Source: Thermodesulfobacterium commune DSM 2178
GTDB lineage: Bacteria > Desulfobacterota > Thermodesulfobacteria > Thermodesulfobacteriales > Thermodesulfobacteriaceae
Reading direction: 5' to 3'
Length of the DNA: 32,000 bases
Assembly: GCF_000734015.1 (NCBI RefSeq)
Contig: NZ_CP008796.1
Span: 1,290,001-1,322,000 of the forward strand
Within the stretch, counting starts at the first letter, position 1, and every line of letters begins with the position of its first letter. This document shows positions 11,204-31,894 of the stretch, piece after piece. Under the pieces are notes generated by a model that was given only the letters and a program-made list of their open reading frames with translations, made no database searches and was not told where the DNA came from. The translations under genes were made by a program, and so were the position numbers.

Positions 11204-11577
11204 CCCCTTATTCAAAAAATTTATATTTTTAAATTACATGGCATCAAGATTAGACGACTACACAATTTTTACCTTGTTTTTTAGCTTTATAAAGATTATT
11301 GTCTGCGATAAAAAGCATCTCTCTTAAACTGTTTTTAAGCTCAAGTGCTCCTCCGATAGAGTGTTAAATCTACTAAAAAAGTTTAGGAAGGGAAGAGAGG
11401 AGGGGTTGGGAGGGTTGGATTTGTGAGGGGTAGAGGAGATGGGATCTAAACTTTATTACTGGAATAAGGGGTTAAAGTGGGTTTTTAAAGGGGATTTTCC
11501 AAGAATAAGGTTGAGGATTTTACAGGGTTTTAAACATGTTTAAAAAAGAATTTATGAGGCTTTGCTGAAAAATGGAT

Positions 11578-11655
11578 GGTTCCAACCTTTTATACAAAGG
11601 TTGGAACCAAGGTTGGAACCAAATGGGCAAGGTTGGAACCTTCCTGGTTCCAACC
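11578..11655. repeat. array A: five 10-bp GGTTSSAACC units
   Basis: GGTTCCAACC (11578-11587), GGTTGGAACC (11599-11608, 11611-11620, 11631-11640), GGTTCCAACC (11646-11655). Units 1/2 and 4/5 form perfect inverted repeats, giving potential hairpins of 13 and 12 bp. Confidence 0.9.
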
Positions 11656-11663
11656 TTGTGGTT

Positions 11664-12305
11664 TTATTTTGGGAGAATGTTAAAAAGTTTCAAGTATTCC
11701 ATATCTTCTTTGCGGTTTTCATAGATAGAAATTTTTATCCATTGAGGTTTTGAGGCTATCATGCTCACAGAGTAAACCATGATGTAATCGGGTTCTTTGG
11801 TAGAGCTTAAGAATATCCCTGGATACTGTTCACATCCTTTTTTGATGCATGTTCTTAGTGAGGTAAGAATTTTTTCTATAGGAGGATTGGTAATTTTAAG
11901 AACCTGGAAAACCGAGTTTAAAAGCAACAAGCCATCTTTATCTGATTTGGAAAGGCAATTAAAGCCAAGTTTTCGGTCAATTTCACAATTAATGACAATT
12001 TCTAAGTGAGGTGGCCAGTAATTTATATCGTCTGGCTTGGTCTTTGTTTTTTCCATATAGGTCACCGCTCCAATATGAGTAAAAGATGGCGAGTGGATAT
12101 TAAGTTCATAATGTTTGCTATTTTCTTTGTCCTTTTTAGAAAGTCTGGTGATTTTTTTATTTTGTTGCATTAAGCGATCAATTTGATGTAAAAGGTCGGG
12201 AGTGATTTTTCTCGGTTGACCAGCTATGTTTTCACTAAAAATGCCAACGAGAATAAAAAGACCAAAGATAATAGCAAGGGTATTAAAAAATTTCTTTTTC
12301 TTCAT
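11664..12305 (-). CDS. membrane-anchored or secreted protein of unknown function (prophage-remnant cargo)
   Basis: 213 aa. The N-terminal MKKKKFFNTLAIIFGLFILVGIF signal/anchor is similar to that of the 12838-13221 product. SD AGGAGGTG precedes the ATG. The rest has no motif I recognise. Confidence 0.65.
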   Translation of the reverse strand: MKKKKFFNTLAIIFGLFILVGIFSENIAGQPRKITPDLLHQIDRLMQQNKKITRLSKKDKENSKHYELNIHSPSFTHIGAVTYMEKTKTKPDDINYWPPHLEIVINCEIDRKLGFNCLSKSDKDGLLLLNSVFQVLKITNPPIEKILTSLRTCIKKGCEQYPGIFLSSTKEPDYIMVYSVSMIASKPQWIKISIYENRKEDMEYLKLFNILPK

Positions 12306-12365
12306 AGGACACCTCCTTTTTAGTGTTTGTTATAGAAAACATTTTGGAAAAAAGTAAGGAAAAGA

Positions 12366-12506
12366 CAAGGGGGATTTTTATAAAGAGATTTCTCGTATGA
12401 GTTTTAAGGCTACTGCGATGATGCGGGCTTCTTGGGGGACAATAGGCGGATAATTTGGATTATCGGAGGTTAAAAGGATTAGACCATCTTTTTTCATTAG
12501 CCTTTA
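12366..12506 (-). pseudogene. 3'-terminal 40-codon fragment of a CI/LexA-type repressor gene
   Basis: The minus strand encodes (R)LMKKDGLILLTSDNPNYPPIVPQEARIIAVALKLIREISL*, versus LMKKDGLILLTSDNPNYPPIIPQEARIIAVALKLLREISL* in the intact repressor. There are 6 nt differences: 4 synonymous and 2 conservative. Confidence 0.85.
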
Positions 12507-12510
12507 AGGG

Positions 12511-12650
12511 AATTGCATTTTTTTTGCAAAATGGTTGTAAGTAGGAAGTGAGAGTTTATGAGGGATGGAAAGAATTTGAGTTGCATGTTTTTGCAACATA
12601 ATTTTGGTTTTTGGAGTGATCTTAAAAGAAATTGCATGATTTTGCAAGAT
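12511..12650 (+). repeat. three ATTGCAT-N(3-7)-TTTGCAA sites
   Basis: aATTGCATtttttTTTGCAAaat (12511-12532), agTTGCATgttTTTGCAAcat (12579-12599), aATTGCATgaTTTTGCAAgat (12630-12650). The same motif occurs at 22509-28 (aaATTGCATaaaTTTGCAAtat). It shares TGCAAAAT with the operator half-site at 14012-14023. Confidence 0.7.
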
Positions 12651-12710
12651 GTGTAAAAATTGGTTAAATGGTTGTAAATAAGAATTTATCAAGGTTTTCT
12701 TGAAAAAGGG

Positions 12711-12786
12711 GGTTACAACCTTTAACAAAAAGGTTACAACCAAGCTTACAACCAAACCCTACAACCAAACCCTACAACCTATAACC
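12711..12786. repeat. array B: GGTTACAACC-type direct repeats
   Basis: GGTTACAACC (12711-12720, 12732-12741), GCTTACAACC (12744-12753), CCTACAACC (12758-12766, 12771-12779), AACC (12783-12786). The first three units use the same spacers as array A (11 nt tttaWacaaaa, then aa). Partial inverted units GGTTGTAA lie at 12533-12540 and 12670-12677. Confidence 0.9.
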
Positions 12787-12837
12787 AGAGGTTCTTACCT
12801 TTTTTAAAAAGTTTAATCTTTTGGAGGTTTCAAGTTT

Positions 12838-13221
12838 CTATTTAAGAATAGTTTTAGAGCTTACTTTACCATTGTCAAAAGTTATCATTACTCCTTGAGC
12901 AAAGCCTTTATAATAATACCAATTTTCAATTTTCCCAAGTCCAGCCACTTCTGTTTCATCTATACTATCTGGTTCTCCAAGTATATTTTTTACTTGCTCT
13001 TTTTTCATTCCTATTTTAATTTTTTGATAAGCTTTTTCAAAATCTTCAGTTTTTTCTTCTTCTGCTTTTTGGGTATCAGCTTTGGGTGTTTCTACCGTTT
13101 TTTCTTCTTTTGGAGTAACATTGGGAGCTTGCGTTTTTTTCTCTCCACCCCCAAAAAAAATTCCTATAAGAATAAGAAAACCAAAAAAGATTGCAACTCC
13201 AATTAACACTTTCTTAAACAT
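12838..13221 (-). CDS. membrane-anchored small protein with a BamE/SmpA-like or DUF3862-like C-terminal domain
   Basis: 127 aa. MFKKVLIGVAIFFGFLILIGIFF anchor, K/E/T-rich linker, then KIKIGMKKEQVKNILGEPDS...WYYY. SD AGGAGGTG. It lies directly downstream of, and is probably co-transcribed with, the repressor. Confidence 0.7.
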   Translation of the reverse strand: MFKKVLIGVAIFFGFLILIGIFFGGGEKKTQAPNVTPKEEKTVETPKADTQKAEEEKTEDFEKAYQKIKIGMKKEQVKNILGEPDSIDETEVAGLGKIENWYYYKGFAQGVMITFDNGKVSSKTILK

Positions 13222-13295
13222 ATGGCACCTCCTTTTTTAAGGTTTACTATAAAGAACATTTCTACAAGAAAAATAGAAAAAGGCAAGGGGGATTT

Positions 13296-13991
13296 TTATA
13301 AAGAGATTTCTCGTAGAAGTTTTAAGGCTACGGCGATGATGCGGGCTTCTTGAGGGATAATAGGCGGATAATTTGGATTATCAGAGGTTAAAAGGATTAG
13401 ACCATCTTTTTTCATTAGCCTTTTCACTAAAAGTTCTCCTTCTTGGTCGGCAACGATGACAATTTTTCTATTAGGGATGTCAAAACCGTCGCCAATGTAA
13501 ATTTTTGCTATTACTTTATCTCCTTCCTGTAAAGTAGGTTCCATGCTATCGCCGTGGACTTCAACGGCAATAAGGTCAGAGGGGTTAACTCTGGGAATTT
13601 TTTTGGTTTCTATGTAGCCGATGATTTCAATATCACCTTTCATTTGAGGGAAGCCTGCTCCAGCTTTTCCTATGACAGGAACAAGGATGCTGTTTTCTTT
13701 AATTCGGCGTTGTTCAGCTAAGATGATTTCTTCTATGCTTGGCTTTTTTTCAAAGATTTCGCCTTGACCAGTTTTAAGCCATTCGTAGGAGACGCCGAAG
13801 ATTTGGGAAATTAAGCGTAAAATCTTATCGGGAATTGGATATTCATTAGATTCATAATATTGAAGAGTTCTGAGCCCAATCATCAATTTTTCAGCAAAAT
13901 CTTTTTGAGAGAATTTTAAAATATTTTTGCGTAAATGTTTAATTCTTTGAGCTAATTCACTATTTTTATCTAAATTTCCGCAATTTTGCAT
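13296..13991 (-). CDS. prophage repressor, XRE-HTH + S24 (LexA/CI-type) autopeptidase domain
   Basis: N-terminal HTH (LAQRIKHLRKNILKFSQKDFAEKLMIGLRTLQYYE). Candidate Ala-Gly cleavage site (GKAGAGF). Ser/Lys dyad context (HGDSMEPTL ... LVKRL). The start ATG lies inside the operator half-site at 13980-13991. SD GAGGA. Confidence 0.9.
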   Translation of the reverse strand: MQNCGNLDKNSELAQRIKHLRKNILKFSQKDFAEKLMIGLRTLQYYESNEYPIPDKILRLISQIFGVSYEWLKTGQGEIFEKKPSIEEIILAEQRRIKENSILVPVIGKAGAGFPQMKGDIEIIGYIETKKIPRVNPSDLIAVEVHGDSMEPTLQEGDKVIAKIYIGDGFDIPNRKIVIVADQEGELLVKRLMKKDGLILLTSDNPNYPPIIPQEARIIAVALKLLREISL

Positions 13992-14036: not shown

Positions 14037-14267
14037 ATGATGGTTAAAAAGAGAAACATCAAAAAGCAAAGATACAAGACGAATGCAAGGTTAATTAAAT
14101 CGCTTCTTGTGCTAAGAGGGGTTAAGCTGGTTGATTTGGCAAAAGAGTTTGGGATTACCAAGCAGTATCTTTGGTATGTCATACACGGAAGACGCAAGGG
14201 GGAAAGGATACGCAAAAAAATAGCCCAATTTTTAGGTATGCCATATGACCAACTTTGGGGGGAGTAA
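14037..14267 (+). CDS. ner: Ner-like (Nlp/HTH_35-type) early regulator
   Basis: ARLIKSLLVLRGVKLVDLAKEFGITKQYLWYVIHGRRKGERIRKKIAQFLGMPYDQLW follows the Mu Ner pattern (I..L...G.SL..L....G......L..V.......GE..IA..L...P..IWP). It occupies the position of ner, divergent from the repressor. Confidence 0.75.
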   Translation: MMVKKRNIKKQRYKTNARLIKSLLVLRGVKLVDLAKEFGITKQYLWYVIHGRRKGERIRKKIAQFLGMPYDQLWGE

Positions 14268-16465: not shown

Positions 16466-16702
16466 ATGTTTTTAACAGAAATTATGAATGAAATAGATGA
16501 AATTGTCAAGGAAGTTAATGACCCAGAAGAGGCTGTAAGAAAAATCATGAAAAAAATAGCCTTATTAGAAAGGGAAGATAGGACTTTGGTGATTGAAGCA
16601 ATTGTAAGGAATTACATCATTGCTTTTAAGAGGGCAGAGTTTGCTACTGCAAAATATGAGGCGTTAAAGAGGGAAAAAGAAGCTTTAAAAGGGAAAGAGT
16701 AA
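16466..16702 (+). CDS. hypothetical helical protein
   Basis: 78 aa. SD GGAGGTG. Its stop overlaps the transposase start (TAATG). Confidence 0.55.
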   Translation: MFLTEIMNEIDEIVKEVNDPEEAVRKIMKKIALLEREDRTLVIEAIVRNYIIAFKRAEFATAKYEALKREKEALKGKE

Positions 16703-18645
16703 TGAGAGAGTTTGAGGTTTGGCTTTCAAGGGCTGAAGTCCAGGAACTTTTAGGGATAAGCCAGCAAGCTATATCAAAAGCTATCCAAAAAGGGAAATTC
16801 AAAGTTCAAGAAATATATGGGAATGGGGGAAGACAATACCGAATTGCTCTTTCCAGTTTGCCAGCTGATGCACAAGTAAGATATTTACAGGCTCATCCAG
16901 AGGTGTGGCAGGAGGCTTTAAAGATTAAAGAGCTTTCAGAGGAGGCAAGGGCTTTCTTAATTAAGAAGACACTTCCGCAAAAGGAAGAAAATGAAATATC
17001 CGTAAGGGTTGCAACAATGGATAGAGCTTGGGCAATAAAGGAATACTTGCAAAATCCTTGCTATGAGACGGCAAAAAGAATTGCTGAAGAGCTAAAAGTC
17101 CATGTGTCAACGATTTATAGATGGATAAAAAAGGCTGAAGAAGAGGCTGAAAGAATTCGGATGATGAAATTGGAAAAACAAACAGTGCCTATTAAGTTTC
17201 CACGAACAAGTGTGTCTGAGGATGTGCTGATTGAAAGCTTGAGCATCATTTTAAGCTCTCATGGAAAGAGAATTATCAACGGGTGGCAGTATGTAGTGAA
17301 TAAAGGGTATGATATCTCTTATTCGCAGTATACACGAATTCTCAATAAGATGACGCCACCTTTCAGTAAAATACTTGAGTATCACAGGTCTGGAAGAATT
17401 TCAGCATTACTTACAGAGACTCCCAAAATTATCAGGGCTTGGAGTGAGCTTCCGGTTATGCATACCCTTGTAGGGGACCAACATTATCTTGACTACTACA
17501 TGTATAGTCCGGAGCTTGATGAGGTGGTTAAGGTTCAGCTTTACATCTGGGCTGATTGTTCAAGTAGGTATTTTGTTTCTTGTGTGCCTTCAATTGGGGA
17601 GCAGTATACGCAATGGCATGTGCAGGTAAGTTTGGCTGAAGCTTTTAGAATACATGTTCCTTCTGAGATATACACCGACTGGGGTAAGCAAGAGAATTCA
17701 AAAATGACAGCTGAATTTATTGACAGGCTTGCTTCTGGGAAGATCTATCTTGGGGATTGGGATGATTTCTTAGAAAAGTATCCAGAGGCAAAGATAGCAA
17801 GAAAAAGGTCTACCCCGGGAGTTCCACCTGTTAAGCCAATTGAAAATATGATCAGGAGGTTTACTGAGTTTCTTAATCAAGAGGGGCTTACAGGTTATGC
17901 AAAGAGGGATTTGAAAGATCCGTTCAGAAACAAGCAAATTCAGGAATTATTGAAAGCACAAATTAAAAAGAAGGATCTACCAACGGTTGAAGAAGGCTTG
18001 AAGGTTATCGCAAATGTTATTGAGAAGTGCAATATAACGGAGATAAAAACAAAAGAAGGCAAGAGATTTATTCCAGCTGAGTTTTTATGGAAAGGACTTG
18101 AAGGAAGAAGGGTTGTTATTGGGGATGATGAGATTGCAATGATATTTTTCCCAGCTTTTGTGAGAAAGGTAAGAAATGCTTCGGTTCAAGTAAAACTTGG
18201 GACAAAAACGGTTGTCTTTACTGCAAAAGAATTGACTTGGCTTCGTGATGGGGAAGAGGTCATGATTAAAGTTAATCCTTTCCCTCCGCATGAAGGGTCA
18301 ATGTTTTTTAGATGGAATGGAAGTGATTGGGAATTTTTAGCTCCCGCTACAGTGTGGATTGGTCATAGGGTGCATCCTCAGGATCAGGAAAAGCTTGCTA
18401 AGGCTATGGAAGTGAAAAATCACTATCTTAAACAGTTCGTTTTAGCGATAAGAGAAATTCATGAGAGAGCAAAGAATACTTTTGGGGTGGTTGAAGATAA
18501 GCCTATAAGAAAATTGACATCCGCTATTAAACATAAGCAAGAAGGTATGGGAGATTTGATTTTCTTAGATATCAAAAAATTTAAAAACATAAGGGATAAG
18601 AATTGGGAAGCACTCGAGAAGCTTGCAGAATTTTATAATTATTAA
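16702..18645 (+). CDS. MuA-like DDE transposase
   Basis: 647 aa. N-terminal Mu-type wHTH (ISQQAISKAIQKGKF...YRIALSSLPADAQ). Second HTH (AKRIAEELKVHVSTIYRWIKK). rve-like core (LVGDQHYLDYY, IYTDWGKQENS). Long beta-rich C-terminus. A MuB-like ATPase gene follows immediately. Confidence 0.85.
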   Translation: MREFEVWLSRAEVQELLGISQQAISKAIQKGKFKVQEIYGNGGRQYRIALSSLPADAQVRYLQAHPEVWQEALKIKELSEEARAFLIKKTLPQKEENEISVRVATMDRAWAIKEYLQNPCYETAKRIAEELKVHVSTIYRWIKKAEEEAERIRMMKLEKQTVPIKFPRTSVSEDVLIESLSIILSSHGKRIINGWQYVVNKGYDISYSQYTRILNKMTPPFSKILEYHRSGRISALLTETPKIIRAWSELPVMHTLVGDQHYLDYYMYSPELDEVVKVQLYIWADCSSRYFVSCVPSIGEQYTQWHVQVSLAEAFRIHVPSEIYTDWGKQENSKMTAEFIDRLASGKIYLGDWDDFLEKYPEAKIARKRSTPGVPPVKPIENMIRRFTEFLNQEGLTGYAKRDLKDPFRNKQIQELLKAQIKKKDLPTVEEGLKVIANVIEKCNITEIKTKEGKRFIPAEFLWKGLEGRRVVIGDDEIAMIFFPAFVRKVRNASVQVKLGTKTVVFTAKELTWLRDGEEVMIKVNPFPPHEGSMFFRWNGSDWEFLAPATVWIGHRVHPQDQEKLAKAMEVKNHYLKQFVLAIREIHERAKNTFGVVEDKPIRKLTSAIKHKQEGMGDLIFLDIKKFKNIRDKNWEALEKLAEFYNY

Positions 18646-18663
18646 AACAAGGGGGTGATAAAA

Positions 18664-19548
18664 ATGGAAGCACAAGCACGAATAATAGATTTCGAATTTG
18701 CAGATTTACTTAAACTCTCGGGGTTAACTTTTAAACAACTTGCTAGTATTTTGCGTGAAAAAGGAATCAATGTATCACCAGCAATGCTTTGCATGATTAA
18801 AAATGGTCAAAAAAATTCTCATCCTCTTAAAGAACAAATTAAAGAAATTTTAAAAGAATACATCGAACAGTCTAAAGAAGAAAAAGAAACTATAAAATTT
18901 TTAACCGAAGCACAAAGAAGAATGCTATCAGTTTTAGAAGCAACTTATGAAGATAGGGAATTTGCTTTGATTGTTGGTCCAAGTGGAATTGGGAAAACTT
19001 ATATAGTTGAAAAGTTTGCAGAAGAACATGAGGGAGTTGTGATTTATAAAGTAGCAAAAGCTATGTCACTTGGAGATTTACTTAGAGAGCTTTGCAAAGT
19101 GCTTAAACTACCTGAATGGGGCACAAATTATCAGAAATTTAGCAGGATCAAAGAGAGCCTAAAAGGAAAAAAAATGCTTATTGTTGATGAAGCTGATTTG
19201 CTTGCTGATGAATCGCCAAATAGGTTTTTGCGGAAGATAGAAATTTTTCGTGAGCTTGCGAATGTGTGTGCGGTTGTGCTTGTTGGACTTCCTGAACTTG
19301 ATGAAGCAATTTATGCAAATGTAAAAAGCTATATTTACTCAAGAATGGGATATTATGCTTATTTAAAAGAGCCAGAACCTCAAGAACTTATCAAATATTG
19401 TGAATTAAAAGGAATAAAAAATATAAGACAGGTTGCAGGTGCTTCAATTGGAAGGGGCTATTTTCGTTACATAGATAAGGTGGCAAAAAGAGCAAAGAAA
19501 ATAGGAGAAGAACTGGCTTTGTCAATTATGTATGCAGGAAAAAGATAA
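18664..19548 (+). CDS. MuB-like AAA+ transposition ATPase
   Basis: N-terminal HTH (LSGLTFKQLASILREKGINVSPAMLCMIKNG). Walker A GPSGIGKT. Walker B MLIVDEADLL. ATG 18664 with AAGGGGG 9 nt upstream is preferred over the GTG at 18655 used by the track. Confidence 0.85.
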   Translation: MEAQARIIDFEFADLLKLSGLTFKQLASILREKGINVSPAMLCMIKNGQKNSHPLKEQIKEILKEYIEQSKEEKETIKFLTEAQRRMLSVLEATYEDREFALIVGPSGIGKTYIVEKFAEEHEGVVIYKVAKAMSLGDLLRELCKVLKLPEWGTNYQKFSRIKESLKGKKMLIVDEADLLADESPNRFLRKIEIFRELANVCAVVLVGLPELDEAIYANVKSYIYSRMGYYAYLKEPEPQELIKYCELKGIKNIRQVAGASIGRGYFRYIDKVAKRAKKIGEELALSIMYAGKR

Positions 19549-19948: not shown

Positions 19949-21287
19949 GACACTTGTCAAGAGAATTGTGTCTCCTTATAAAATCTCTTTACAAACATTT
20001 GCCTCAATTCGTATAAAGCAGACTTAATTAAAGGAAGTGGTTTTTGCCATCTCGTTTTCTGAATCCGACTTACTGTTATGTATATCGCAACCTCTGCTGT
20101 CTTGATTGATTGAAAATATCCCCCTGTATTTACCCTTATCAGCTCTATCCTGCTATTTATATTCTCAACCACATTCGTCGTGTATATATACCTCCTCACC
20201 CCCTCAGGATATTTCTTATAAACAAAATAATGCTCCTTCTTTTTCAAAAGTCCCTTTATATAAGCTGGATACTTCTTCTCATAACTCTTACATAATTCCT
20301 CAAATCTAATTAAGGCCCTCTCATACTCCTCTATCCTCTTTATAATGCTTAACTCCTCATAAAATTTTTTAGCATCCTGCTTAGACATGTTCCTGTTGAT
20401 GTTCCTTTGCATGTGTACAAAACAAAGCTGATGATCTGTCTCAGGAAAAAGGGCTTTTATGGCTTGAGCAAGGCCAGGAAAATCATCACTCACTATTACC
20501 ATAACCCTCTTAACTCCCCTCTTTATCAAATCATTAAGTATCTGGAGCCAGTCCTCCTTCGTCTCTGAACCAAAATAAATGTAATAAGAAAGTAAATTTT
20601 TTCTTCCCTCCATATCTATTCCGATGATATTATAAATAACTGCTTTTCTGATTCTGTTGGCTTCGGTATCTTTTATCTGAGTATGATAAGCGTCTATAAA
20701 CATAGCAAACAAATTTTCTGGCAATTCTTTGGTTTTTAATTCTTTGGCTTGGTTATACAATTCTTCTTTAATTTCTTCTATTTGTTCTGGAGAGTAGGGA
20801 AGTTTCATAGATTGCAAGAGGGCTTTGATTTTATTGGGGGAGTAGCTTTGGAGAACGAGGTTAAGGATAAAGTCCTGGAAAGATTCATCAGCTTTTTGCC
20901 ATTCAGGAGGAAGAATAGCAGGTCTGAATTCAGATTTTCTATCTCTTGGGACAGAGATACCAAGGTTACCTAAGAAACAGGCAAGTTGTCTTTCATAGTA
21001 ACCATTAGCTTTATTATCAATACTATCTCTAAGGAATATTTCTCTTTCTTTTTTCATGAGAGCGTTTAAGAGGAGTGCAGCAGCCATTTTGATACCCTCT
21101 TTTGATTCAATTTTTGAGATTTCACTTAAAACTTTTTCTAAATCTAAGTCTAAGTTTTTCATTTTACAGACCTCCTGGTTAGTTTAGTCTTTTAGGTTTT
21201 ATGTTATCATTAATTTAAAAAATATTAAAAATTTTTATTATGCCTCTAAAATATTTTATTAAAAGACACAATTTATATTCTACTCCC
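19949..21287 (-). mobile_element. IS256-family insertion sequence (~1.34 kb)
   Basis: 8-bp direct repeat CAACTTGT at 19941-19948 and 21288-21295. Sub-terminal inverted repeats AATTGTGTCTYYTWATAAAAT at 19964-19984 and 21273-21253. A single transposase ORF fills the element. Confidence 0.8.
19957..21162 (-). CDS. IS256-family (mutator-type) transposase
   Basis: 401 aa with IVSDDFPGLAQAIKALFPETDHQLCFVHMQRNINRN, the signature region of Transposase_mut/IS256. Confidence 0.9.
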   Translation of the reverse strand: MKNLDLDLEKVLSEISKIESKEGIKMAAALLLNALMKKEREIFLRDSIDNKANGYYERQLACFLGNLGISVPRDRKSEFRPAILPPEWQKADESFQDFILNLVLQSYSPNKIKALLQSMKLPYSPEQIEEIKEELYNQAKELKTKELPENLFAMFIDAYHTQIKDTEANRIRKAVIYNIIGIDMEGRKNLLSYYIYFGSETKEDWLQILNDLIKRGVKRVMVIVSDDFPGLAQAIKALFPETDHQLCFVHMQRNINRNMSKQDAKKFYEELSIIKRIEEYERALIRFEELCKSYEKKYPAYIKGLLKKKEHYFVYKKYPEGVRRYIYTTNVVENINSRIELIRVNTGGYFQSIKTAEVAIYITVSRIQKTRWQKPLPLIKSALYELRQMFVKRFYKETQFS

Positions 21288-21348
21288 CAACTTGTATTAA
21301 GTATGGGAAGAAAATCTATAAAAGAAAATGAAATAGGAGGGGTCAACA

Positions 21349-21840
21349 ATGCGAACTAAAAAAGCTAAAAAAATGATGGATCATTTGATTTATAAAATTG
21401 AAAGTTTGCTTTATGCAATTAAGGAAGAAAGGGACTTTTTAAGCAAAGTTGAAGCAGAATATGAAAGAGAATTAGAAGCTCTTAAAGCAAAGTATTATCC
21501 AGAAATTGAGAAACGGAAAAATACTTTGAAAAATTTAGAACAGGAGCTTGAAAAATTTGCTAAGGCTAATGCAGGAAAGTTATTTCAAGATGGAGATATT
21601 GTTGAGACAAGTATAGGAAGGATCATAAGAGAAATAAAAGTTGCAGTAAAGAGAGCAAGAGGGGTTCTTGAGAAACTTGAACAACTTGGTTGGGATGAAG
21701 CGATTATCATCCAAAAGAAAGTTAACTGGGATGTATTGGAAACATGGCCTGAAGAAAAGTTAATAGCTTGCGGAACAGAAAGAGTAACAAAAGTAAAAAT
21801 TACATACGAATTGTATGGGGAGGAGGATGGCAATAGATAG
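21349..21840 (+). CDS. gam: Mu Gam-like host-nuclease inhibitor
   Basis: 163 aa with a coiled-coil N-terminal half, then SIGRIIREIKVAVKRARGVLEKLEQLGWDEAIIIQKKVNWDVL. Size, position after the A/B genes and pattern fit the Gam family. Confidence 0.7.
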   Translation: MRTKKAKKMMDHLIYKIESLLYAIKEERDFLSKVEAEYERELEALKAKYYPEIEKRKNTLKNLEQELEKFAKANAGKLFQDGDIVETSIGRIIREIKVAVKRARGVLEKLEQLGWDEAIIIQKKVNWDVLETWPEEKLIACGTERVTKVKITYELYGEEDGNR

Positions 21841-22246
21841 GAAAAGGCTTTTAAGAAGGCTTTGGGCAATAGCAGATAGGCTTTTTGGTAAAGAAAAAGA
21901 AGAAAAAGTATATAGTTATGTTTCTTTTGTTTATGAGAAAGAAAGATTGCGAGAATTAACAGATGAAGAGCTTGAAGAAATGGTTAAAGCTTTTGTAGAA
22001 ATGCTTTCAGAAAATGAATGCCCTTCTGCACCTAATGAATGGAGACTTATTAAAGTTTTGCAAAAAAAACTTGATTGGACAAATGAGCATTTATTGAATT
22101 ACATTAAAAAATATGCTCGTGTTGATCATCCGAGATTTTTGACTCAATATGAAGCAAAGATTGTAATTGCTGCTATGATGACTATATTAAATGGAAGAAA
22201 GAAGAGAAGAAAAAATAGAAGTGTGAGAAATGAAAAAGTTGTATAA
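21815..22246 (+). CDS. GemA / Mu gp16-like (DUF1018) protein
   Basis: RKRLLRRLWAIADRLFGKEKEE...LRELTDEELEEMVKAF fits my recollection of the gp16/GemA family. An alternative start is ATG 21827. Confidence 0.6.
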   Translation: MGRRMAIDRKRLLRRLWAIADRLFGKEKEEKVYSYVSFVYEKERLRELTDEELEEMVKAFVEMLSENECPSAPNEWRLIKVLQKKLDWTNEHLLNYIKKYARVDHPRFLTQYEAKIVIAAMMTILNGRKKRRKNRSVRNEKVV

Positions 22247-22457
22247 GGTTCGAGAAATAGCGGAATATTTTCAGGTAAGTGAACGAACAGTGTATGGCTG
22301 GATAGAGATGGGTTATTTGCGGGCGATCAAGGTTGGGTCGCTTGATGGGAAAGGGACGGTTAGAGTTCCAGAGGATGCTTTAGAAGAATTTATTAGAAAT
22401 TGTCAAACTATTCCTATTCGTCCAAAAAGGATAGTTCTTAAGGTTCCTCAGGAATAG
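22230..22457 (+). CDS. excisionase-family (HTH_17/MerR-like) DNA-binding protein; candidate middle/late regulator
   Basis: LYKVREIAEYFQVSERTVYGWIEMGYLRAIKVG. It is the last early gene before the first conserved late-promoter box. Confidence 0.6.
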   Translation: MKKLYKVREIAEYFQVSERTVYGWIEMGYLRAIKVGSLDGKGTVRVPEDALEEFIRNCQTIPIRPKRIVLKVPQE

Positions 22458-22482
22458 CATTCTTTATAATCTTTATAATCAG

Positions 22483-22528
22483 GAAAATATTGCTTGTTTC
22501 TTTTTTACAAATTGCATAAATTTGCAAT
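22483..22528 (+). promoter_or_regulatory. conserved box 1 (putative late promoter)
   Basis: GAAAATATTGCTTGT (22483-22497) is repeated exactly at 24985-24999 and 31959-31973. The 46 nt are ~80% identical to 31959-32000. TTGCTT, 19 nt, CATAAA would place the TSS at the ATG of the gpU-like gene (no SD). A tandem CTTTATAAT x2 lies at 22462-22479. Confidence 0.5.
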
Positions 22529-23050
22529 ATGCAGTATGCCCAAATTGGAGATGTAGTTTTTGAAGTCCTTGCATATAAAGAGCATAAAGAGGAATTAGAG
22601 TTTCCTTATGCAAGACATGAGACAATCAAGCCACCTTCAAGTTTACAATTTATGGGTGGAAAGGAGCTTAGAAAAATTAGTTTATCTGTGCGTTGGCATA
22701 GAGAATGGTGTAATCCTGAGGAAGAAAAGAAAAAGCTTGAAGAGTTTGCAGTAAAAGGAGAATATGCCAAATTTATTTTGGCGGAAAAGGTGATCGGAGA
22801 TTTCGTTATTGAAAAAGTTTTTTTTCAGATTCAGCAAATAGATGCTTTTGGAAAGCCAGTAATTATTGATGCAGATTTAGAATTGACAGAATATATTAAA
22901 AAAGAAATGAAAAAGAAGAAGATAGTATCTAAAAAAGCTCCGATGAAAAAAACTAAAAGCACAGCAAGTAGTCAGCCAAAATATCAAGTTATACAAGAGC
23001 AAAGCAAAGATAAATCAATTTCTATGCCGAAAATAGTTAAGGTATCATGA
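22529..23050 (+). CDS. P2 gpU-like tail protein
   Basis: IGDVVFEVL...YARHETIKPPSSLQFMGGKELRKISLSVRW...GDFVIEKV follows the Phage_P2_GpU pattern. It has a Lys-rich C-terminal tail. Confidence 0.7.
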   Translation: MQYAQIGDVVFEVLAYKEHKEELEFPYARHETIKPPSSLQFMGGKELRKISLSVRWHREWCNPEEEKKKLEEFAVKGEYAKFILAEKVIGDFVIEKVFFQIQQIDAFGKPVIIDADLELTEYIKKEMKKKKIVSKKAPMKKTKSTASSQPKYQVIQEQSKDKSISMPKIVKVS

Positions 23051-23253
23051 AATATATAACTAAGGAAGGTGATAGATGGGATTTGCTTGCCTGGAAGTTT
23101 TATGGGGATCCTTACCTTTATGAGCCTCTTCTTTTAGAGAATAAAGAGTTGATGGGGTTTACTGTGCTTCCTGCTGGAAAGGTGATTGAAATTCCAGAGG
23201 TTATAGATGAAACAACTCCTGAGGTAGTTGCTCCGCCGTGGCAGACAGATTAA
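23047..23253 (+). CDS. P2 gpX-like tail protein X (LysM-like)
   Basis: MKYITKEGDRWDLLAWKFYGDP...VLPAGKVIEIPEV parallels P2 X (MKTFALQGDTLDAICVRYYG...VLPHGTAVELPDV). Confidence 0.8.
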   Translation: MKYITKEGDRWDLLAWKFYGDPYLYEPLLLENKELMGFTVLPAGKVIEIPEVIDETTPEVVAPPWQTD

Positions 23254-24257
23254 TTCCAGAGCCTTATTTGTATGTAGAAATTAATAACAGGGATGTTTCG
23301 GCGTATATTACCCCTTTCTTACTTAGTTTTCGGTATATTGATAATGATGGACTTGATAAGAATGAGAGTGATGATGTAGAAATTGAAGTTGAAGATTCTC
23401 AAAGTTTTTTCAGAGATAATCCTCCTGCAAGAGGGAGTTCTTTAAAGGTCCGCTTTGGGTATGTAGATAAAATCAGAGATGCTGGAGTTTTCTTTATAGA
23501 TAGTTATAGTTTTAGGTATAGTAGGTCTGGAGCTGTTTTTACGATAAAAGCTTTAGCAAAAGATGTTAAAGCAAGCTTCAGGACACTAAAAACTACCGCT
23601 TTTGAAAATACAACATTCAAAAAAATAGCAGAAGATATAGCTAAGCGTAATGGATACAAACTATACTTTGAAGGTGCTGATATTTATTTTAAAAGGATAG
23701 ATCAATATAAAGAGCGAGATTTAGCTTTTTTGCAAAAGCTTTGTCAAAGATATGGCTATGTATGTAAGATTTCGGCAAGAAAAATTGTTATTCGGGATAT
23801 GGATAAAGTGTTAGGTGGTTCAGTTTTATATGTACTTACCCCTGAAGTTGTGATTGATTTAGATATTGAAGTATCAAGTCTTTATGCAGGGGATATAGAT
23901 GTTGCTTATTTAGATTTGAATAAAAAAGAGGCTACAGTGGATAAGAAAAAAACTGAGGTTAAAGCAAGCCAAAATATTCAGGTTGAGAGGGTAAGGGTTG
24001 AGAACAAAAAGCAGGCTGAAAGGATAGCTCATGCTCAGAAAACTCAAAATGAAATGAAAGAATTTAAAGGGAGGGTGCGTTGTATCGGGATTCCTGATAT
24101 TTATGCAAGCGGGAAGATTGGTCTTTCTGGTTTTGGAAAGTTTGACAGAGAATATTATGTTTCAAGGGTTGAGCATGAAATCACAAGAAATGGATACATT
24201 ACTCAGATTGAGTTTTATAAATCTCCACAACAAACTGGAGGTAAGAAAAAGAAATGA
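23238..24257 (+). CDS. P2 gpD / Mu gp44-like late control D (baseplate hub) protein
   Basis: 339 aa. Position after U/X and before V. Pattern ...LSFRYIDNDGLDKNESDDVEIEVED...RVEHEITRNGYITQIEF. Confidence 0.75.
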   Translation: MADRLIPEPYLYVEINNRDVSAYITPFLLSFRYIDNDGLDKNESDDVEIEVEDSQSFFRDNPPARGSSLKVRFGYVDKIRDAGVFFIDSYSFRYSRSGAVFTIKALAKDVKASFRTLKTTAFENTTFKKIAEDIAKRNGYKLYFEGADIYFKRIDQYKERDLAFLQKLCQRYGYVCKISARKIVIRDMDKVLGGSVLYVLTPEVVIDLDIEVSSLYAGDIDVAYLDLNKKEATVDKKKTEVKASQNIQVERVRVENKKQAERIAHAQKTQNEMKEFKGRVRCIGIPDIYASGKIGLSGFGKFDREYYVSRVEHEITRNGYITQIEFYKSPQQTGGKKKK

Positions 24258-24661
24258 TACGTCGGGGTATAGTTGTTGCAGTAGATGAGAAAACAGGAAA
24301 AGTAAGGGTTCAATTTCCTGATCTTGATGGGCTTGTATCTAATTGGTTGCCAGTTGTTTTTCAAAAGACTTGTAAAGATAAACATTATTGGATGCCTGAT
24401 GTCGGAGAATATGTTGTAGTTGCTTTTGATGAGGAAGGAGAAAAAAGCGATGGATATGTTCTTGGTGCTTTTTACAATGAGAAGGATACTGTGCCTGAAG
24501 TAGCCAATAAAGATAAATTCTTTGTGAGATTTGAAGATGGGACTGAGATTGAGTATGACAGGAAATCTCATAAGCTCAGAATTTCAGTTAGAGGAGATGT
24601 GCTTATTGAGGCTGATGGAAACATGACACTTAAAGCAAGTAGAATTGACCTAAACCCATAA
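24254..24661 (+). CDS. baseplate assembly protein V / Mu gp45-like central spike (OB-fold)
   Basis: IRRGIVVAVDEKTGKVRVQFPDLDGLVSNWLPVV....PDVGEYVVVAFDEEGEKSDGYVLGAFYN is the typical gpV/Vgr OB-fold start. Confidence 0.8.
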   Translation: MIRRGIVVAVDEKTGKVRVQFPDLDGLVSNWLPVVFQKTCKDKHYWMPDVGEYVVVAFDEEGEKSDGYVLGAFYNEKDTVPEVANKDKFFVRFEDGTEIEYDRKSHKLRISVRGDVLIEADGNMTLKASRIDLNP

Positions 24662-24674
24662 TGGAGGTGCAAAC

Positions 24675-24962
24675 ATGGGAGCTGTTGTTCGGCTTGGGGA
24701 CAATTCTTGTGGTCATGAATGCTTTCCACCTCGTCCAAACATAGAGGCGTCTCCTAATGTGTTTGTGAACGGCAAAGGTGCCCATAGACTTGGTGATGCT
24801 TGGGATGTGCATACCTGACCAGCTGGAAGGCATGACGGCGTGGCTTCAGGTGGAAGTCCAAATGTGTTTGTCAACGGAAAGCCAATTTGTCGAGTAGGAG
24901 ACCCTATTTCCTGCGGAGATACTATGTGTGAAGGTTCACCCAATGTTTTTGCTAATGGATAG
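24675..24962 (+). CDS. PAAR-repeat spike-tip protein interrupted by an in-frame TGA (Sec candidate or pseudogene)
   Basis: SD GGAGGTG 5 nt before ATG 24675. The 95 codons read ...RLGDNSCGHEC...SPNVFVNGKGAHRLGDAWDVHT[TGA 24816-24818]PAGRHDGVASGGSPNVFVNGKPICRVGDPISCGDTMCEGSPNVFANG*. It is absent from the ORF track because each half is under 60 aa. Confidence 0.75.
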
Positions 24963-24987
24963 TTTTTGAAAATGGATAGTTTTTGAA
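24954..24987 (+). repeat. perfect 17-bp tandem duplication AATGGATAGTTTTTGAA x2
   Basis: Copy 1 (24954-24970) contains the last PAAR codons and the stop. Copy 2 (24971-24987) runs into conserved box 2. Confidence 0.95.
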
Positions 24988-25020
24988 AATATTGCTTGTC
25001 TTTAGGTAATTCTTAGATAT
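24985..25020 (+). promoter_or_regulatory. conserved box 2 (putative late promoter)
   Basis: GAAAATATTGCTTGT, then 16-17 nt to TAGATAT. It lies upstream of the gp25-like to MuF block. Confidence 0.4.
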
Positions 25021-25032
25021 CTTCCATTTTAA

Positions 25033-25299
25033 ATGGAAAATTTAACCTCATCTTATGGAATAATTGGCATTATTTTTAATGGTGGTTATTTAGCAGTCGC
25101 TATTTTTCTTTTGTATTTGATTTATGAATTGAAAAAAAAACATGAAAAATTAGAAGAAAATCTTGATACACTTGAGAAAGAAAAAATTTCTAAAGATGAG
25201 TTTTACCGCAGTGTTTCAGGATGGAGAGAAGAAATAAATACATTACATAAAAAAATAGATGACTTAAAAGACCTTATTATAAAGGAGAAACTCAAATGA
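25033..25299 (+). CDS. Mu gp25-like membrane/coiled-coil protein (DUF2730-like)
   Basis: N-terminal TM (IIGIIFNGGYLAVAIFLLYLIY), then a coiled coil. Called from its position three genes upstream of the large terminase; no diagnostic motif was recognised. Confidence 0.5.
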   Translation: MENLTSSYGIIGIIFNGGYLAVAIFLLYLIYELKKKHEKLEENLDTLEKEKISKDEFYRSVSGWREEINTLHKKIDDLKDLIIKEKLK

Positions 25300-25592
25300 G
25301 GTTAGCTTCACTTTCATTGAGATATAAAATTTTAGACTTTCTATACAAAGTTTATCCTGAGGCTGTTGAAGAGCTTACTATTATTCATGTCTTTTACGAA
25401 TATCACACTGTAGATGATATTAAGAAACATCTAAATTATCTTGTTGATAAAGGCTATATAGAGCAAAAAGAGATTTGTCTTAGGCTTGGGACTAAAAAGA
25501 CTACTAATATTTATAAGATAACCTCTAAAGGAATTGACCTTATGCAAGGAATCATTCAGGATAAAGCAATACCAATCCCTGAGGATGAATAA
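25296..25592 (+). CDS. small winged-helix protein (Mu gp26 position)
   Basis: 98 aa, IKKHLNYLVDKGYIEQKE...YKITSKGIDL wHTH-like. Start overlaps the previous stop (ATGA). Confidence 0.5.
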   Translation: MRLASLSLRYKILDFLYKVYPEAVEELTIIHVFYEYHTVDDIKKHLNYLVDKGYIEQKEICLRLGTKKTTNIYKITSKGIDLMQGIIQDKAIPIPEDE

Positions 25593-25594
25593 GG

Positions 25595-26086
25595 ATGCGT
25601 AGGTCAAAAGCAAAGCTTTATGATTTGGTAGAGAGGATCATTTATCTTTACGAAAATGAGAAAATGACCATAAGAGATATTGAGGCTTTACTGCGTTCTG
25701 AAGGTTATGACATTTCTAAATCAAGCATTCATAGAACAATAAAAAGCTATACTGAGCTTGCAGAAGAATATAAAAGAACAGCAGAAGAAACTAAAGCTCT
25801 TATTGAAGCTTTAAGAGAACAACCAGCAAGCTATCAGATGGAAGCTATTTTAACCATGCTTGTTTCTAAAGTTTTTAATTTTGTAAGGAGCATTGAAGAG
25901 CTTGAGTTTGAAGATCCTCATGAACTTGTTTTAGCTTTGAATAGACTTGCTTCTTCGGTAGAAAAAATGCAGAGATATAGAGAAGAATTAGAAGCAAAGA
26001 TGGCCAAAGTTGAGTTAGAAGCAAAGAAGAGAAATATAGATAAAGAGTTTATTGAATATGTCCGCAAGGAAATATTTGGGGCGTAA
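25595..26086 (+). CDS. terminase small subunit, Mu gp27-like (DUF3486-like)
   Basis: N-terminal HTH (MTIRDIEALLRSEGYDISKSSIHRTIKSY) plus a coiled-coil C-terminus. It lies immediately upstream of and overlaps the large terminase. Confidence 0.6.
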   Translation: MRRSKAKLYDLVERIIYLYENEKMTIRDIEALLRSEGYDISKSSIHRTIKSYTELAEEYKRTAEETKALIEALREQPASYQMEAILTMLVSKVFNFVRSIEELEFEDPHELVLALNRLASSVEKMQRYREELEAKMAKVELEAKKRNIDKEFIEYVRKEIFGA

Positions 26087-28770: not shown

Positions 28771-28882
28771 GCCTGTCTATGGACCAACGGAGAATTTAGA
28801 TGCAGTGGAAAGATTAAGCATATTGTTTTTCCGGGGCATTTTATACGCTGGGATCCTCATCGGACTGATGCTTGGGCTTTAA
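28604..28882 (+). CDS. holin candidate (3 TM, dual-start motif)
   Basis: SD GGAGGTG 6 nt before ATG 28604. MQEMKKYF provides Met1 and Met4 separated by charged residues. Three TM segments (FGIALLIALPFLLIAG, IAMCAVGVALAELVWVAFF, ILFFRGILYAGILIGLMLGL). It lies directly upstream of the endolysin. Confidence 0.65.
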   Translation: MQEMKKYFLRFGIALLIALPFLLIAGREALRIFLYKIAMCAVGVALAELVWVAFFKPVYGPTENLDAVERLSILFFRGILYAGILIGLMLGL

Positions 28883-28883
28883 A

Positions 28884-29483: not shown

Positions 29484-29484
29484 G

Positions 29485-31886: not shown

Positions 31887-31894
31887 AAAGAAAT

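What the first reader, a model, noticed from the sequence alone, without database searches (positions are those of the whole stretch)
11530..13421. Tandem paralogous left arms: a 40-codon repressor stub with mostly synonymous divergence marks a second, decayed or interrupted Mu-like prophage
Two modules share the order [GGTTnnAACC array] - [anchored-protein gene, minus strand] - [~65-bp leader] - [repressor 3' end]. The segment 12366-12502 is 131/137 identical to 13284-13420. Four of the six differences are synonymous in the repressor frame, and two are conservative (I->V, L->I). This suggests two diverged functional repressor alleles rather than a recent local duplication. Homology ends abruptly at 12503-12506, so the left copy retains only the last 40 codons. 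This fits one of two scenarios. The intact prophage may have transposed into the repressor gene of a resident related prophage, leaving the rest of the old prophage beyond the right end. Alternatively, an internal deletion occurred in a tandem lysogen. Either way the breakpoint is a candidate phage-end junction.
Basis: seen in the sequence. Interest (0 to 1): 0.65.

Follow-up and report, generated by a model that had tools for sequence, protein, structure and literature searches.

The report
Chimeric Mu-like prophage with relic arm
The duplicated repressor stub is real and marks the exact spot where one Mu-like phage transposed into the repressor gene of another; later loss of most of the older phage left a single chimeric, probably immobile prophage inside a diguanylate-cyclase gene of Thermodesulfobacterium commune, which is a well-resolved but ordinary kind of phage mosaicism.

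Summary
Window 12348-12505 repeats 13266-13423. In the 41-codon stub, 4 of 6 differences are synonymous.

The stub belongs to a 1,144-bp left arm (11362-12505) of an "A-type" Mu-like phage. This arm is 96% identical to the left arm of an intact metagenomic phage that has a 737-aa transposase.

Position 12506 is the exact left terminus (AAGGGAATTGCA...) of a "B-type" Mu-like phage with a 647-aa transposase. The same terminus appears in three other contigs, each with a different flank.

The rest of phage A does not lie beyond the right end. The element ends in an A-type right terminus (...GGAATGAACA). A 5-bp duplication, TAGAG, flanks the whole ~35.7-kb composite. Removing the element rebuilds a 423-aa response-regulator/GGDEF gene that is present, identical, in uninterrupted Thermodesulfobacterium genomes. 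No B-type right end exists.

Best model: A integrated first. B then transposed into A's repressor gene. A and B then recombined in the shared SSB/right-arm region, which deleted B's right end and nearly all of A.

The GGTTnnAACC "arrays" are intrinsic-terminator hairpins supported by covariation.

This is a new member of a known kind, of moderate to low interest.

The parts
11250..11361 (-). 3' fragment (last 37 codons plus stop) of the host response-regulator/GGDEF diguanylate cyclase gene, cut by the prophage insertion. The rest of the gene lies beyond the prophage right end, outside the window (L039 6315-7479).
   Evidence: Joining window ..11361 to L039 6320.. gives an intact 423-aa ORF with Response_reg and GGDEF domains. 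That exact protein, P0479, exists in uninterrupted Thermodesulfobacterium genomes. The DNA of the empty sites in L042-L044 carries a single CTCTA.
11357..11361 (.). Left copy of the 5-bp target-site duplication TAGAG. The right copy is at L039 6315-6319, outside the window.
11362..12505 (.). Relic left arm of the A-type Mu-like phage. It begins with the terminus 5'-TGTTAAATCTACTAAAAAAGTTTAGGAA.
   Evidence: It is 96.0% identical over 1,144 nt to the left arm of the intact A-type phage contig L045. It is 87-90% identical to L024/L027 over 11356-11660. Four independent flanks all start the homology at TGTT.
11577..11659 (-). A-arm 'GGTTnnAACC array': two strong hairpins. On the minus-strand transcript, hairpin 11609-11577 is followed by a U tract and lies downstream of the cargo gene. 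A terminator-like hairpin is also present on the plus strand (11627-11659).
   Evidence: Terminator scan. RNA fold -48.7 kcal/mol, z = -7.3. Compensatory changes relative to L024 and the B-type copies, with no pair broken by a substitution (one cell lost to an alignment gap).
11664..12305 (-). A-arm cargo gene: a 213-aa protein with an N-terminal membrane anchor and no family assignment.
   Evidence: ORF. No Pfam or PHROG hit. The same protein sits next to an intact repressor in A-type phages (cluster 1; L045).
12378..12505 (-). Repressor stub: the last 41 codons plus stop of the A-type phage's HTH/S24 repressor. It lacks the HTH and the catalytic Ser and Lys. NCBI annotates it as a 39-aa ORF.
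   Evidence: P0462
12506..12710 (.). Left terminus of the B-type Mu-like phage (5'-AAGGGAATTGCA...), carrying three TTGCA-N6-7-TGCAA sites (12513-12529, 12581-12596, 12632-12647). These are candidate binding sites for the 647-aa transposase.
   Evidence: Homology with L026, L041 and L047 starts exactly at 12506, with unrelated flanks. The motif occurs 4 times in the window against 0.22 expected. Sites are present at both ends of B-type phages.
12711..12790 (-). B-arm array. The terminal pair of GGTTGTAACC units forms a 13-bp hairpin followed by a U tract on the minus-strand transcript (12741-12711).
12838..13221 (-). B-arm cargo gene: a 127-aa anchored protein resembling BamE/DUF3862/BLIP. It is absent from the relatives L026 and L041.
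13296..13991 (-). Intact B-type repressor, 231 aa, HTH_3 plus Peptidase_S24.
14037..14267 (+). Ner/Cro-like early regulator, with a divergent promoter/operator region at 13992-14036.
16702..19548 (+). B-type transposition genes: the 647-aa Mu-like transposase (16702-18645) and the MuB-like AAA+ ATPase (18655-19548).
   Evidence: phrog_310 E=3.6e-38 and phrog_296 E=1.9e-31; AAA_22/TniB. The transposase is 31% identical to the A-type transposase over its N-terminal half (aligned residues 1-345 of 647).
19949..21287 (-). IS256-family insertion sequence inside the prophage. It is absent from the draft assembly of the same strain.
   Evidence: Transposase_mut E=3.4e-63. The window is 100% identical to JQLF01000011.1 on both sides of the IS, with an 8-bp overlap.
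21288..32000 (+). B-type core continues: Gam, gpU/X/D/V, terminase, portal, Mu F. The element runs on outside the window to an A-type right end (L039 6314).
   Evidence: Colinear with the B-type contig L026/L033 at 92-99%. Gene content.

Best explanation
The region is the left boundary of one chimeric Mu-like prophage of Thermodesulfobacterium commune DSM 2178. The element is about 35.7 kb, or about 33.0 kb without its two IS copies.

Proposed history:
1. An A-type transposable phage inserted into a response-regulator/GGDEF gene next to the rRNA operon and made a 5-bp duplication, TAGAG. A-type phages have ends 5'-TGTT...AACA-3' and, in relatives, a 726-737-aa MuA-like transposase.
2. A heteroimmune B-type transposable phage then transposed, in the same orientation, into codon ~190 of A's repressor gene. 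B-type phages have ends AAGGGA...TCCCTT with TTGCA-N-TGCAA sites and a 647-aa transposase. This joined B's left terminus (12506) to the last 41 codons of A's repressor.
3. A and B share near-identical modules. Recombination between direct homologous segments near the right end then removed B's right end, the 5' part of A's repressor, and all of A's early and late genes. The SSB gene and the ~150 bp after it are the most likely crossover site.

What remains is: A left arm (11362-12505), the B core, and the A right terminus. Losing A's early region would also rescue a cell whose A repressor had just been destroyed.

The chimera carries a B-type transposase but only one B-type end, plus two IS insertions. 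It is therefore most likely immobile.

The GGTTnnAACC arrays in both arms are intrinsic terminators that close the leftward repressor-cargo operon before the phage end.

Shown: the junctions, the duplication, the empty site, the identity of both arms, the absence of a B right end and of A's remainder, and the hairpin covariation. Inferred: the order of events, the crossover site, the selection, and the immobility.
For: Junctions:
- The B left terminus is at exactly the same base in four contexts.
- The A left terminus is at exactly the same base in four contexts.
- The A arm is 96% identical over 1,144 nt to intact phage L045. L045 continues into a full repressor and an A-type transposase.

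Right end:
- L039 (JQLF01000016.1) reads TMP, P2_I, fibre, a 148-aa gene, SSB, then ...GGAATGAACA|TAGAG, followed by host genes.
- From the SSB gene to the terminus it matches the A-type right end of L040 at mostly 88-98% per 100-nt window. It diverges from the B-type L033/L034 after position ~6000.
- The A-type terminal inverted repeat matches at 22 of the first 28 positions, read directly.

Empty site:
- The reconstructed 423-aa GGDEF protein is an exact database entry (P0479, 19 contigs).
- L042-L044 show a single CTCTA and the synteny radical SAM - GGDEF - rRNA operon - PBP.

Ends and transposase:
- No B-type right terminus and no TTGCA-N-TGCAA site lies at the composite's right end.
- End type tracks transposase type in the independent contigs L024, L027, L045 (A) and L026/L033, L041, L047/L034 (B).
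- The two transposases are 31% identical over their N-terminal halves, apart from a nearly identical first 60 aa.

Homology available for recombination:
- Repressor, ner, orf144 and orf166 are 80-97% identical between the two types.
- The SSB region is mostly ~90% or more identical to both types (80-97% per 100-nt window).

Contig linkage:
- Draft contigs 11 and 16 are joined by one IS copy with an 8-bp duplication.
- Accession numbers run AIH04479 (tube) to AIH04482 (TMP) in the complete genome.

Terminators.
Against: - The order of events is not observable.
- The crossover cannot be placed more precisely than between the tail-fibre genes and ~310 bp from the right end. B-type relatives with the same short fibre module (L006, L038) end before that region.
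- It is untested whether the 647-aa transposase can act on A-type ends. Its first 60 residues are ~85% identical to those of the A-type enzyme.
- The complete genome (1.76 Mb) could not be read, so the right end comes from the draft assembly of the same strain. A copy of A's remainder elsewhere in the chromosome is not excluded. The only indirect evidence is that no NCBI member appeared among the 15 listed of 24 members of the A-type transposase cluster.
- The B-type right terminus rests on a single contig (L034). No duplication was seen for that contig.
Confidence: 0.72

Rival explanations
1. The chimera is a functional hybrid phage that formed elsewhere. It then transposed as one unit into the GGDEF gene using its outer A-type ends, driven either by its own 647-aa transposase with relaxed specificity or by an A-type helper. 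The internal B left end is a passenger relic.
For: The TAGAG duplication flanks the whole composite and cannot by itself tell when the interior was replaced. The N-terminal 60 aa of the A- and B-type transposases are ~85% identical. These phages are highly mosaic.
Against: In every independent contig, end type matches transposase type. Beyond the first 60 aa the aligned part of the two enzymes is only about 20% identical (31% overall over residues 1-345). The one exact-match metagenome scan for the B left end returned only an ordinary B-type end, with no second stub|B junction. The element carries two IS insertions.
Confidence: 0.17
2. One reading: a simple insertion of an intact prophage into the repressor gene of a resident prophage, with the remainder of the resident prophage lying beyond the intact prophage's right end.
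For: The left junction looks exactly as this scenario predicts.
Against: Beyond the right end lies the host GGDEF gene, not a repressor 5' fragment or phage early genes. The right terminus itself is A-type, and the outer flanks rebuild one host gene.
Confidence: 0.02
3. A local tandem duplication of the left arm, followed by divergence or cargo replacement, or an assembly artefact.
For: The two modules are adjacent, direct, and share their order.
Against: The left module is 96% identical to an independent phage type. It has its own terminus, a different hairpin sequence and a different cargo gene. The right module's terminus is shared with other B-type phages. The structure is identical in two assemblies.
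Confidence: 0.01
4. B reached A's repressor by intramolecular replicative transposition (an adjacent deletion), not by infection followed by homologous recombination.
For: Deletions promoted by Mu-type transposition that start exactly at a phage end are a known outcome of replicative transposition (textbook knowledge of Mu). The left junction is compatible with this.
Against: Such a deletion keeps both B ends, but the B right end is missing and is replaced by an A-type right arm. A second, recombinational event is therefore needed in any case.
Confidence: 0.08

Closest known systems
Bacteriophage Mu and Mu-like transposable prophages (Mu, D3112/B3, BcepMu, FluMu-type)
   Same: - Leftward repressor next to the left end, with a divergent Ner/Cro-like gene.
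- A MuA-like DDE transposase plus a MuB-like AAA+ ATPase, and Gam, Mu F and gp27 homologues.
- Insertion inside host genes with a 5-bp duplication.
- 5'-TG...CA-3' termini on the outer (A-type) ends.
   Different: - The repressor is a CI/LexA-type HTH+S24 protein, not a Mu c-type one.
- The resident 647-aa transposase hits phrog_310 but none of Pfam's Mu-specific domains.
- Its own (B-type) ends start with AAGGGA rather than TG.
- The prophage's outer ends belong to a different phage type from its transposase.
Nested or chimeric prophages and phage mosaicism through homologous recombination at shared modules
   Same: One phage has integrated into another. The intervening DNA was later lost by recombination between homologous modules, leaving a relic arm and a truncated gene as a scar.
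   Different: Here the entry step was transposition into the resident phage's immunity gene, resolved to the nucleotide. The product pairs one phage's ends with another phage's transposition genes.
Modular CI/LexA-like phage repressors (interchangeable HTH on a conserved S24 domain)
   Same: At least six unrelated N-terminal HTH types sit on a nearly invariant linker and S24 domain. This explains why the stub is 95% identical to the resident repressor although the phages differ.
   Different: The stub keeps only the last 41 residues. It has no HTH and no catalytic Ser/Lys, so it is not a member in any functional sense.
Rho-independent terminators that insulate phage ends
   Same: A 13-14-bp GC-flanked stem followed by a U tract, directly downstream of the leftward operon. 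Covariation keeps the pairing intact.
   Different: The hairpins are built from repeated 10-nt near-palindromic units, with extra unit copies that make the region look like an iteron array. In the A arm the arrangement is bidirectional.

Membership tests
Mu-like transposable prophage (composite element) | MuA-like DDE transposase | tested here: inconclusive
   The 647-aa protein hits phrog_310 'transposase' at E=3.6e-38. In Pfam only its HTH domains reach threshold; Mu-transpos_C, DDE_2 and rve do not. The A-type relative has Mu-transpos_C and DDE_2.
Mu-like transposable prophage (composite element) | MuB-like AAA+ transposition ATPase next to the transposase | tested here: met
   phrog_296 'DNA transposition protein' E=1.9e-31; AAA_22 and TniB.
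Mu-like transposable prophage (composite element) | 5-bp target-site duplication, and an intact target restored by removing the element | tested here: met
   TAGAG lies on both sides. The rebuilt 423-aa GGDEF protein is identical to P0479. The empty-site DNA in L042-L044 has a single copy.
Mu-like transposable prophage (composite element) | Terminal inverted repeats ending 5'-TG...CA-3' | tested here: met
   The outer ends are TGTTAAATC... and ...GGAATGAACA, matching at 22 of 28 positions. The internal B-type end starts AAGGGA and does not meet this feature.
Mu-like transposable prophage (composite element) | Matched pair of ends cognate to the resident transposase (mobility) | tested here: not met
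   The B-type transposase is present, but only one B-type end remains and it is internal. There is no B-type right terminus and no TTGCA-N-TGCAA site at the right end. That the ends are cognate to each transposase type is inferred from co-occurrence in other contigs.
Mu-like transposable prophage (composite element) | Mu-type accessory and structural genes (Gam, Mu F, gp27-like) | tested here: met
   Precomputed Pfam hits on the called genes: Phage_Mu_Gam and Phage_Mu_F; Phage_Mu_Gp27 in relatives.
CI/LexA-type S24 repressor (the stub) | HTH DNA-binding domain plus an S24 domain with catalytic Ser and Lys | tested here: not met
   The stub keeps residues RLMKK...REISL only. The GDSMEP serine and the VK lysine lie upstream of the break. 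The intact copy at 13296-13991 meets the feature (Peptidase_S24 E=4e-18, HTH_3 E=1.7e-9).
Intrinsic (Rho-independent) terminator (the GGTTnnAACC arrays) | Stable GC-containing hairpin followed by a U tract, downstream of an operon on the transcribed strand | tested here: met
   (z = -7.3 for the A arm, -7.1 for L024). The B-arm hairpin is predicted in the window, L026 and L041.
Intrinsic (Rho-independent) terminator (the GGTTnnAACC arrays) | Pairing conserved through compensatory changes | tested here: met
   Three of 13 pairs have double-sided changes and none is broken by a substitution (one cell is lost to an alignment gap), but only 5 sequences were available.
Intrinsic (Rho-independent) terminator (the GGTTnnAACC arrays) | Termination of transcription in vivo | not testable with these tools
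   Needs Term-seq or RNA-seq.
IS256 family (element at 19949-21287) | Mutator-type transposase and an 8-bp target duplication | tested here: met
   Transposase_mut E=3.4e-63. An 8-bp overlap at the empty site in the draft. The second copy has the duplication TAGGAAAA.

The most novel reading that the evidence does not exclude
The T. commune element may be a trapped intermediate of a general mechanism by which thermophilic Mu-like phages exchange whole transposition modules (ends plus transposase). One phage transposes into the immunity region of another. Homologous recombination in the shared immunity and SSB modules then resolves the nest. The truncated inner right-arm copy carried by all A-type right arms (L039 ~6030-6122 versus 6123-6187; also L040) would be an older scar of the same process at the other end.
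Probability: 0.25. Interest if true: 0.5.

Novelty: new member of a known kind. Interest (0 to 1): 0.33.

Why it matters
This is a nucleotide-resolved natural example of one transposable phage landing in another's repressor gene and then replacing its core. It shows how prophage boundaries can be misread. The true outer end lies 1.1 kb left of the apparent one, and the apparent second prophage is only an arm.

It documents a large hot-spring family of Mu-like phages in which immunity, cargo, end/transposase and fibre modules reassort.

It reassigns an iteron-like repeat array as terminator hairpins.

It shows that a diguanylate cyclase gene of the type strain is disrupted by the prophage, whereas related uninterrupted genomes carry it intact.

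None of this overturns current understanding of phage mosaicism.

Tried and rejected
The tube-protein scan found nothing. The truncated-repressor alignment found only distant Aquificae and other hits.
- Viral-contig scans with the transposase, the repressor and the 213-aa protein gave little.
- A protein search with a relative's tail-fibre fragment did not return the source protein.
- The route that worked was: cluster members, then P0339 and P0368, then draft contigs 11 and 16.
- I first assumed the draft contig ran 19 kb past the window. That was an orientation error, corrected.
- I considered the arrays as transposase, repressor or pac binding sites with swapped specificity. The unit sequence does not track the repressor HTH type, orf166 or the transposase. 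Hairpin covariation explains the concerted changes, so I dropped that idea.
- I looked for a duplication around the B-type contig L047/L034. The flanks are GGCAT and TGACC, so none was found.
- The literature search found only a survey listing a prophage in T. commune DSM 2178, with no dissection.


Full report
**Source and setting**

The window is 100% identical to NCBI draft contig JQLF01000011.1 (GCA_000746435.1), except for a 1,339-bp IS at 19949-21287. Window proteins and their neighbours also occur on a 1,764,045-bp record named Thermodesulfobacterium commune DSM 2178.

An rRNA operon lies on the minus strand at 5662-10791. A Mu-like prophage fills the right part of the window. It encodes:
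- an HTH+S24 repressor (13296-13991, minus strand);
- a Ner-like gene;
- a 647-aa transposase and a MuB-like ATPase;
- Gam, gpU/X/D/V, terminase, portal and Mu F.

Window 12348-12505 repeats 13266-13423 (92%). The core is 95.2% identical over 146 nt. In the repressor frame the left copy keeps 41 codons plus the stop. It has six differences: four synonymous, plus I->V and L->I. It is preceded by an in-frame TAA. pN/pS is 0.16, and the probability of this many synonymous changes under neutrality is 0.037.

Weaker homology covers the leader and the anchor-coding start of the two downstream genes. It also covers the arrays and the 46 nt to their left.

**What the two modules are**

A protein search with the repressor found a family of alleles in which at least six unrelated N-terminal HTH types sit on a nearly invariant linker and S24 domain. 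The stub's peptide equals the C-terminus of one full-length allele, P0088. I fetched the contigs that encode those alleles and compared their DNA. This resolved the structure.

*B-type left end.* Contigs with the 647-aa transposase match the window from exactly 12506 rightwards. The matches are L026 (91% over 12506-12779), L041 and L047 (95% over 12505-12766). Each has a different sequence to the left of that base:
- L026: ...CTTAATC, inside an ftsK-like ORF;
- L041: ...AAAATAT;
- L047: ...AGGCAT;
- window: ...AGCCTTT, the repressor stub.

So 12506 is the left terminus of this "B-type" phage, 5'-AAGGGAATTGCA.

*A-type left arm.* Contigs with a different, 726-737-aa MuA-like transposase (Mu-transpos_C, DDE_2, GemA, gp27) match the left module. 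L045 is 96.0% identical to window 11362-12505 over all 1,144 nt. It then continues into an intact repressor and the A-type early genes. L024 and L027 match 11356-11660 and 12303-12505 but carry a different cargo gene between those segments. In all four contexts the homology starts at TGTTAAATC, with unrelated flanks.

So 11362-12505 is the left arm of an "A-type" phage, cut at codon ~190 of its repressor by B's left end.

**The right end**

The draft contig stops 458 bp after the tube gene. Its last 95 bp are the left end of the same IS. The first 312 bp of draft contig JQLF01000016.1 are the right end of that IS. The flanks of the two contig ends are contiguous in relatives and show an 8-bp duplication, TAGGAAAA. 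In the complete genome only two protein accessions separate the tube (AIH04479) from the tape measure (AIH04482). One IS copy therefore links the two contigs.

Contig 16 (L039) carries the tape measure, P2_I, the fibre, a 148-aa gene and SSB. It then reads ...TTTTTTCCTGGAATGAACA|TAGAG, followed by host genes: a response-regulator/GGDEF gene, radical SAM, MreB and others. There is no repressor 5' fragment and no A-type early region.

- The terminal ~470 nt match the right end of A-type phage L040 up to the final A. After position ~6000 they do not match the B-type right ends in L033 and L034.
- The reverse complement of the terminus, TGTTCATTCCAGGAAAAAAGTTGAGGAA, pairs with the A-type left terminus TGTTAAATCTACTAAAAAAGTTTAGGAA at 22 of 28 positions.
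- The five bases outside each end are TAGAG (window 11357-11361 and L039 6315-6319).
- Joining the flanks with one TAGAG copy gives an intact 423-aa Response_reg+GGDEF ORF.
- That exact protein is in the database from uninterrupted Thermodesulfobacterium genomes (P0479, 19 contigs).
- Three such loci show a single CTCTA and the expected synteny: radical SAM, GGDEF, rRNA operon, PBP.

The whole element is therefore one insertion bounded by A-type ends. It is about 35.7 kb with its two IS copies and about 33.0 kb without them.

**The interior**

From 12506 to the P2_I gene the element is colinear with the B-type reference contig at 92-99%. B-type ends carry TTGCA-N5-8-TGCAA sites:
- three in the first 142 bp of the left end (4 in the window against 0.22 expected);
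- two or three at the right ends of L033 and L034;
- none at the T. commune right end.

No match to the B-type right terminus occurs anywhere in the composite.

End type co-occurs with transposase type in all independent contigs examined. The two transposases are 31% identical over the aligned N-terminal half (residues 1-345), except for a nearly identical first 60 residues.

By contrast, the repressor C-domain, ner, orf144 and orf166 are 80-97% identical between the two types. The SSB gene and the ~150 bp after it are mostly ~90% or more identical to both types, 80-97% per 100-nt window.

**Model**

1. A integrated into the GGDEF gene and made the TAGAG duplication.
2. B transposed into A's repressor gene in the same orientation.
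3. Recombination between the homologous right-hand modules of B and A deleted B's right end and everything of A between its repressor stub and its right arm.

Destroying A's repressor should derepress A, so losing A's early genes would be selected. That part is inference.

The chimera has a B-type transposase, only one B-type end and two IS insertions. It is probably immobile, which is also inference.

The main rival is that the chimera is a working hybrid that transposed as a unit on its A-type ends. The duplication cannot exclude this. Counting against it are the co-segregation of ends with transposases and the absence of any second copy of the junction.

Local duplication and assembly artefact are excluded.

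**The arrays**

Each GGTTnnAACC cluster contains a 13-14-bp hairpin followed by a U tract on the minus-strand transcript, directly after the leftward repressor-cargo operon. The A arm also has a plus-strand hairpin.

The "concerted" differences between phages are compensatory:
- window A: GGTTCCAACC/GGTTGGAACC;
- L024 and L027: GGTTGACACC/GGTGTCAACC;
- window B and L041: GGTTGTAACC;
- L026: GGTTATAACC.

Three of 13 pairs change on both sides and none is broken by a substitution; one cell is lost to an alignment gap.

The arrays are best read as intrinsic terminators that insulate the phage end. B's terminator lies upstream of the stub and the 213-aa gene on the leftward transcript, so the orphaned A-arm gene probably lacks its normal promoter. 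That is inference.

**Comparison and novelty**

The element is Mu-like in gene content, in its 5-bp duplication, in inserting inside genes and in its TG...CA outer ends. It departs from Mu in three ways: a CI/LexA-type repressor, a B-type transposase without Pfam's Mu-specific domains, and B-type termini that start with AAGGGA.

Nested prophages, modular repressors and recombinational mosaics are all well known. A survey had already listed a prophage in this strain without dissecting it (PMC8146710).

I rate this a new member of a known kind. It is neat, fully explained at the sequence level, and of moderate to low surprise.

Noticed in passing
window 19949-21287; L032 end / L039 1-312: An IS256-family IS (401-aa Mutator-type transposase) inside the prophage is absent from the draft assembly of the same strain, with an 8-bp overlap at the empty site. 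A second identical copy, with duplication TAGGAAAA, sits between the 88-aa tail gene and the tape-measure gene. It is the reason three assemblies break there.
   Followed up: yes
window 11577-11659 and 12711-12790; L024, L026, L027, L041: The GGTTnnAACC repeat units change in concert between phages. The changes are compensatory within 13-14-bp hairpins that are followed by U tracts, so these are terminators and not iterons. The function of the extra unit copies in the B arm (CCCTACAACC x2) is unexplained.
   Followed up: partly
window 13296-13991; proteins P0078-P0097: The repressor family has at least six unrelated N-terminal HTH (immunity) types fused at the same point (..LISQ/S.FGVSYEWLK..) to a nearly invariant S24 domain. 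A-type and B-type phages share these alleles.
   Followed up: partly
L039 ~6030-6122 versus 6123-6187 (also L040 12620-12780): The A-type right arm itself contains a tandem, truncated inner right-arm segment. The outer copy is 97% identical to B-type L034 19273-19337. The inner copy ends right after TTTTGCAAAACTATGTAAT. This is a mirror image of the left-arm nesting and may be an older scar.
   Followed up: partly
window 22512-22527: A fourth TTGCA-N6-TGCAA palindrome lies just upstream of the gpU gene and is conserved in L026, L003 and L041. It may be a regulatory or transposase/repressor site inside the phage. Another conserved copy lies in the structural region (L032/L033/L034/L035 7854-7872).
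   Followed up: no
window 16702-16880 versus L024 8499-8320: The A- and B-type transposases share a ~85% identical first 60 residues (HTH_17) and only about 20% identity over the rest of the aligned region. This suggests a common DNA target, such as an enhancer or operator, in the shared immunity region.
   Followed up: no
window 11664-12305 and 12838-13221; L024 10737-11498; L047 570-1286: The slot between the terminator and the repressor stop holds different anchored-protein genes (213, 253, 127 or 238 aa) or nothing (L026, L041). All use a homologous leader and anchor-coding start. It behaves as a moron cassette site.
   Followed up: partly
window 15768-16442 (minus strand): A DUF4145 gene lies in the opposite orientation inside the early operon. 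It is present in L026 and absent from L041 and L047, so it is a candidate accessory or defence gene.
   Followed up: no
window 10909-11116: Three spaced copies of CTCTTGACAA (on the minus strand) lie upstream of the 16S rRNA gene. They are probably tandem rRNA promoters. The prophage sits only ~250 bp beyond them.
   Followed up: no
L047 1-115 and L034 19440-19545 (same contig): The flanks of this complete B-type contig (GGCAT and TGACC) do not form a duplication. Either the DNA is virion-derived with unrelated host flanks, or the B right terminus is not exactly where I placed it.
   Followed up: partly
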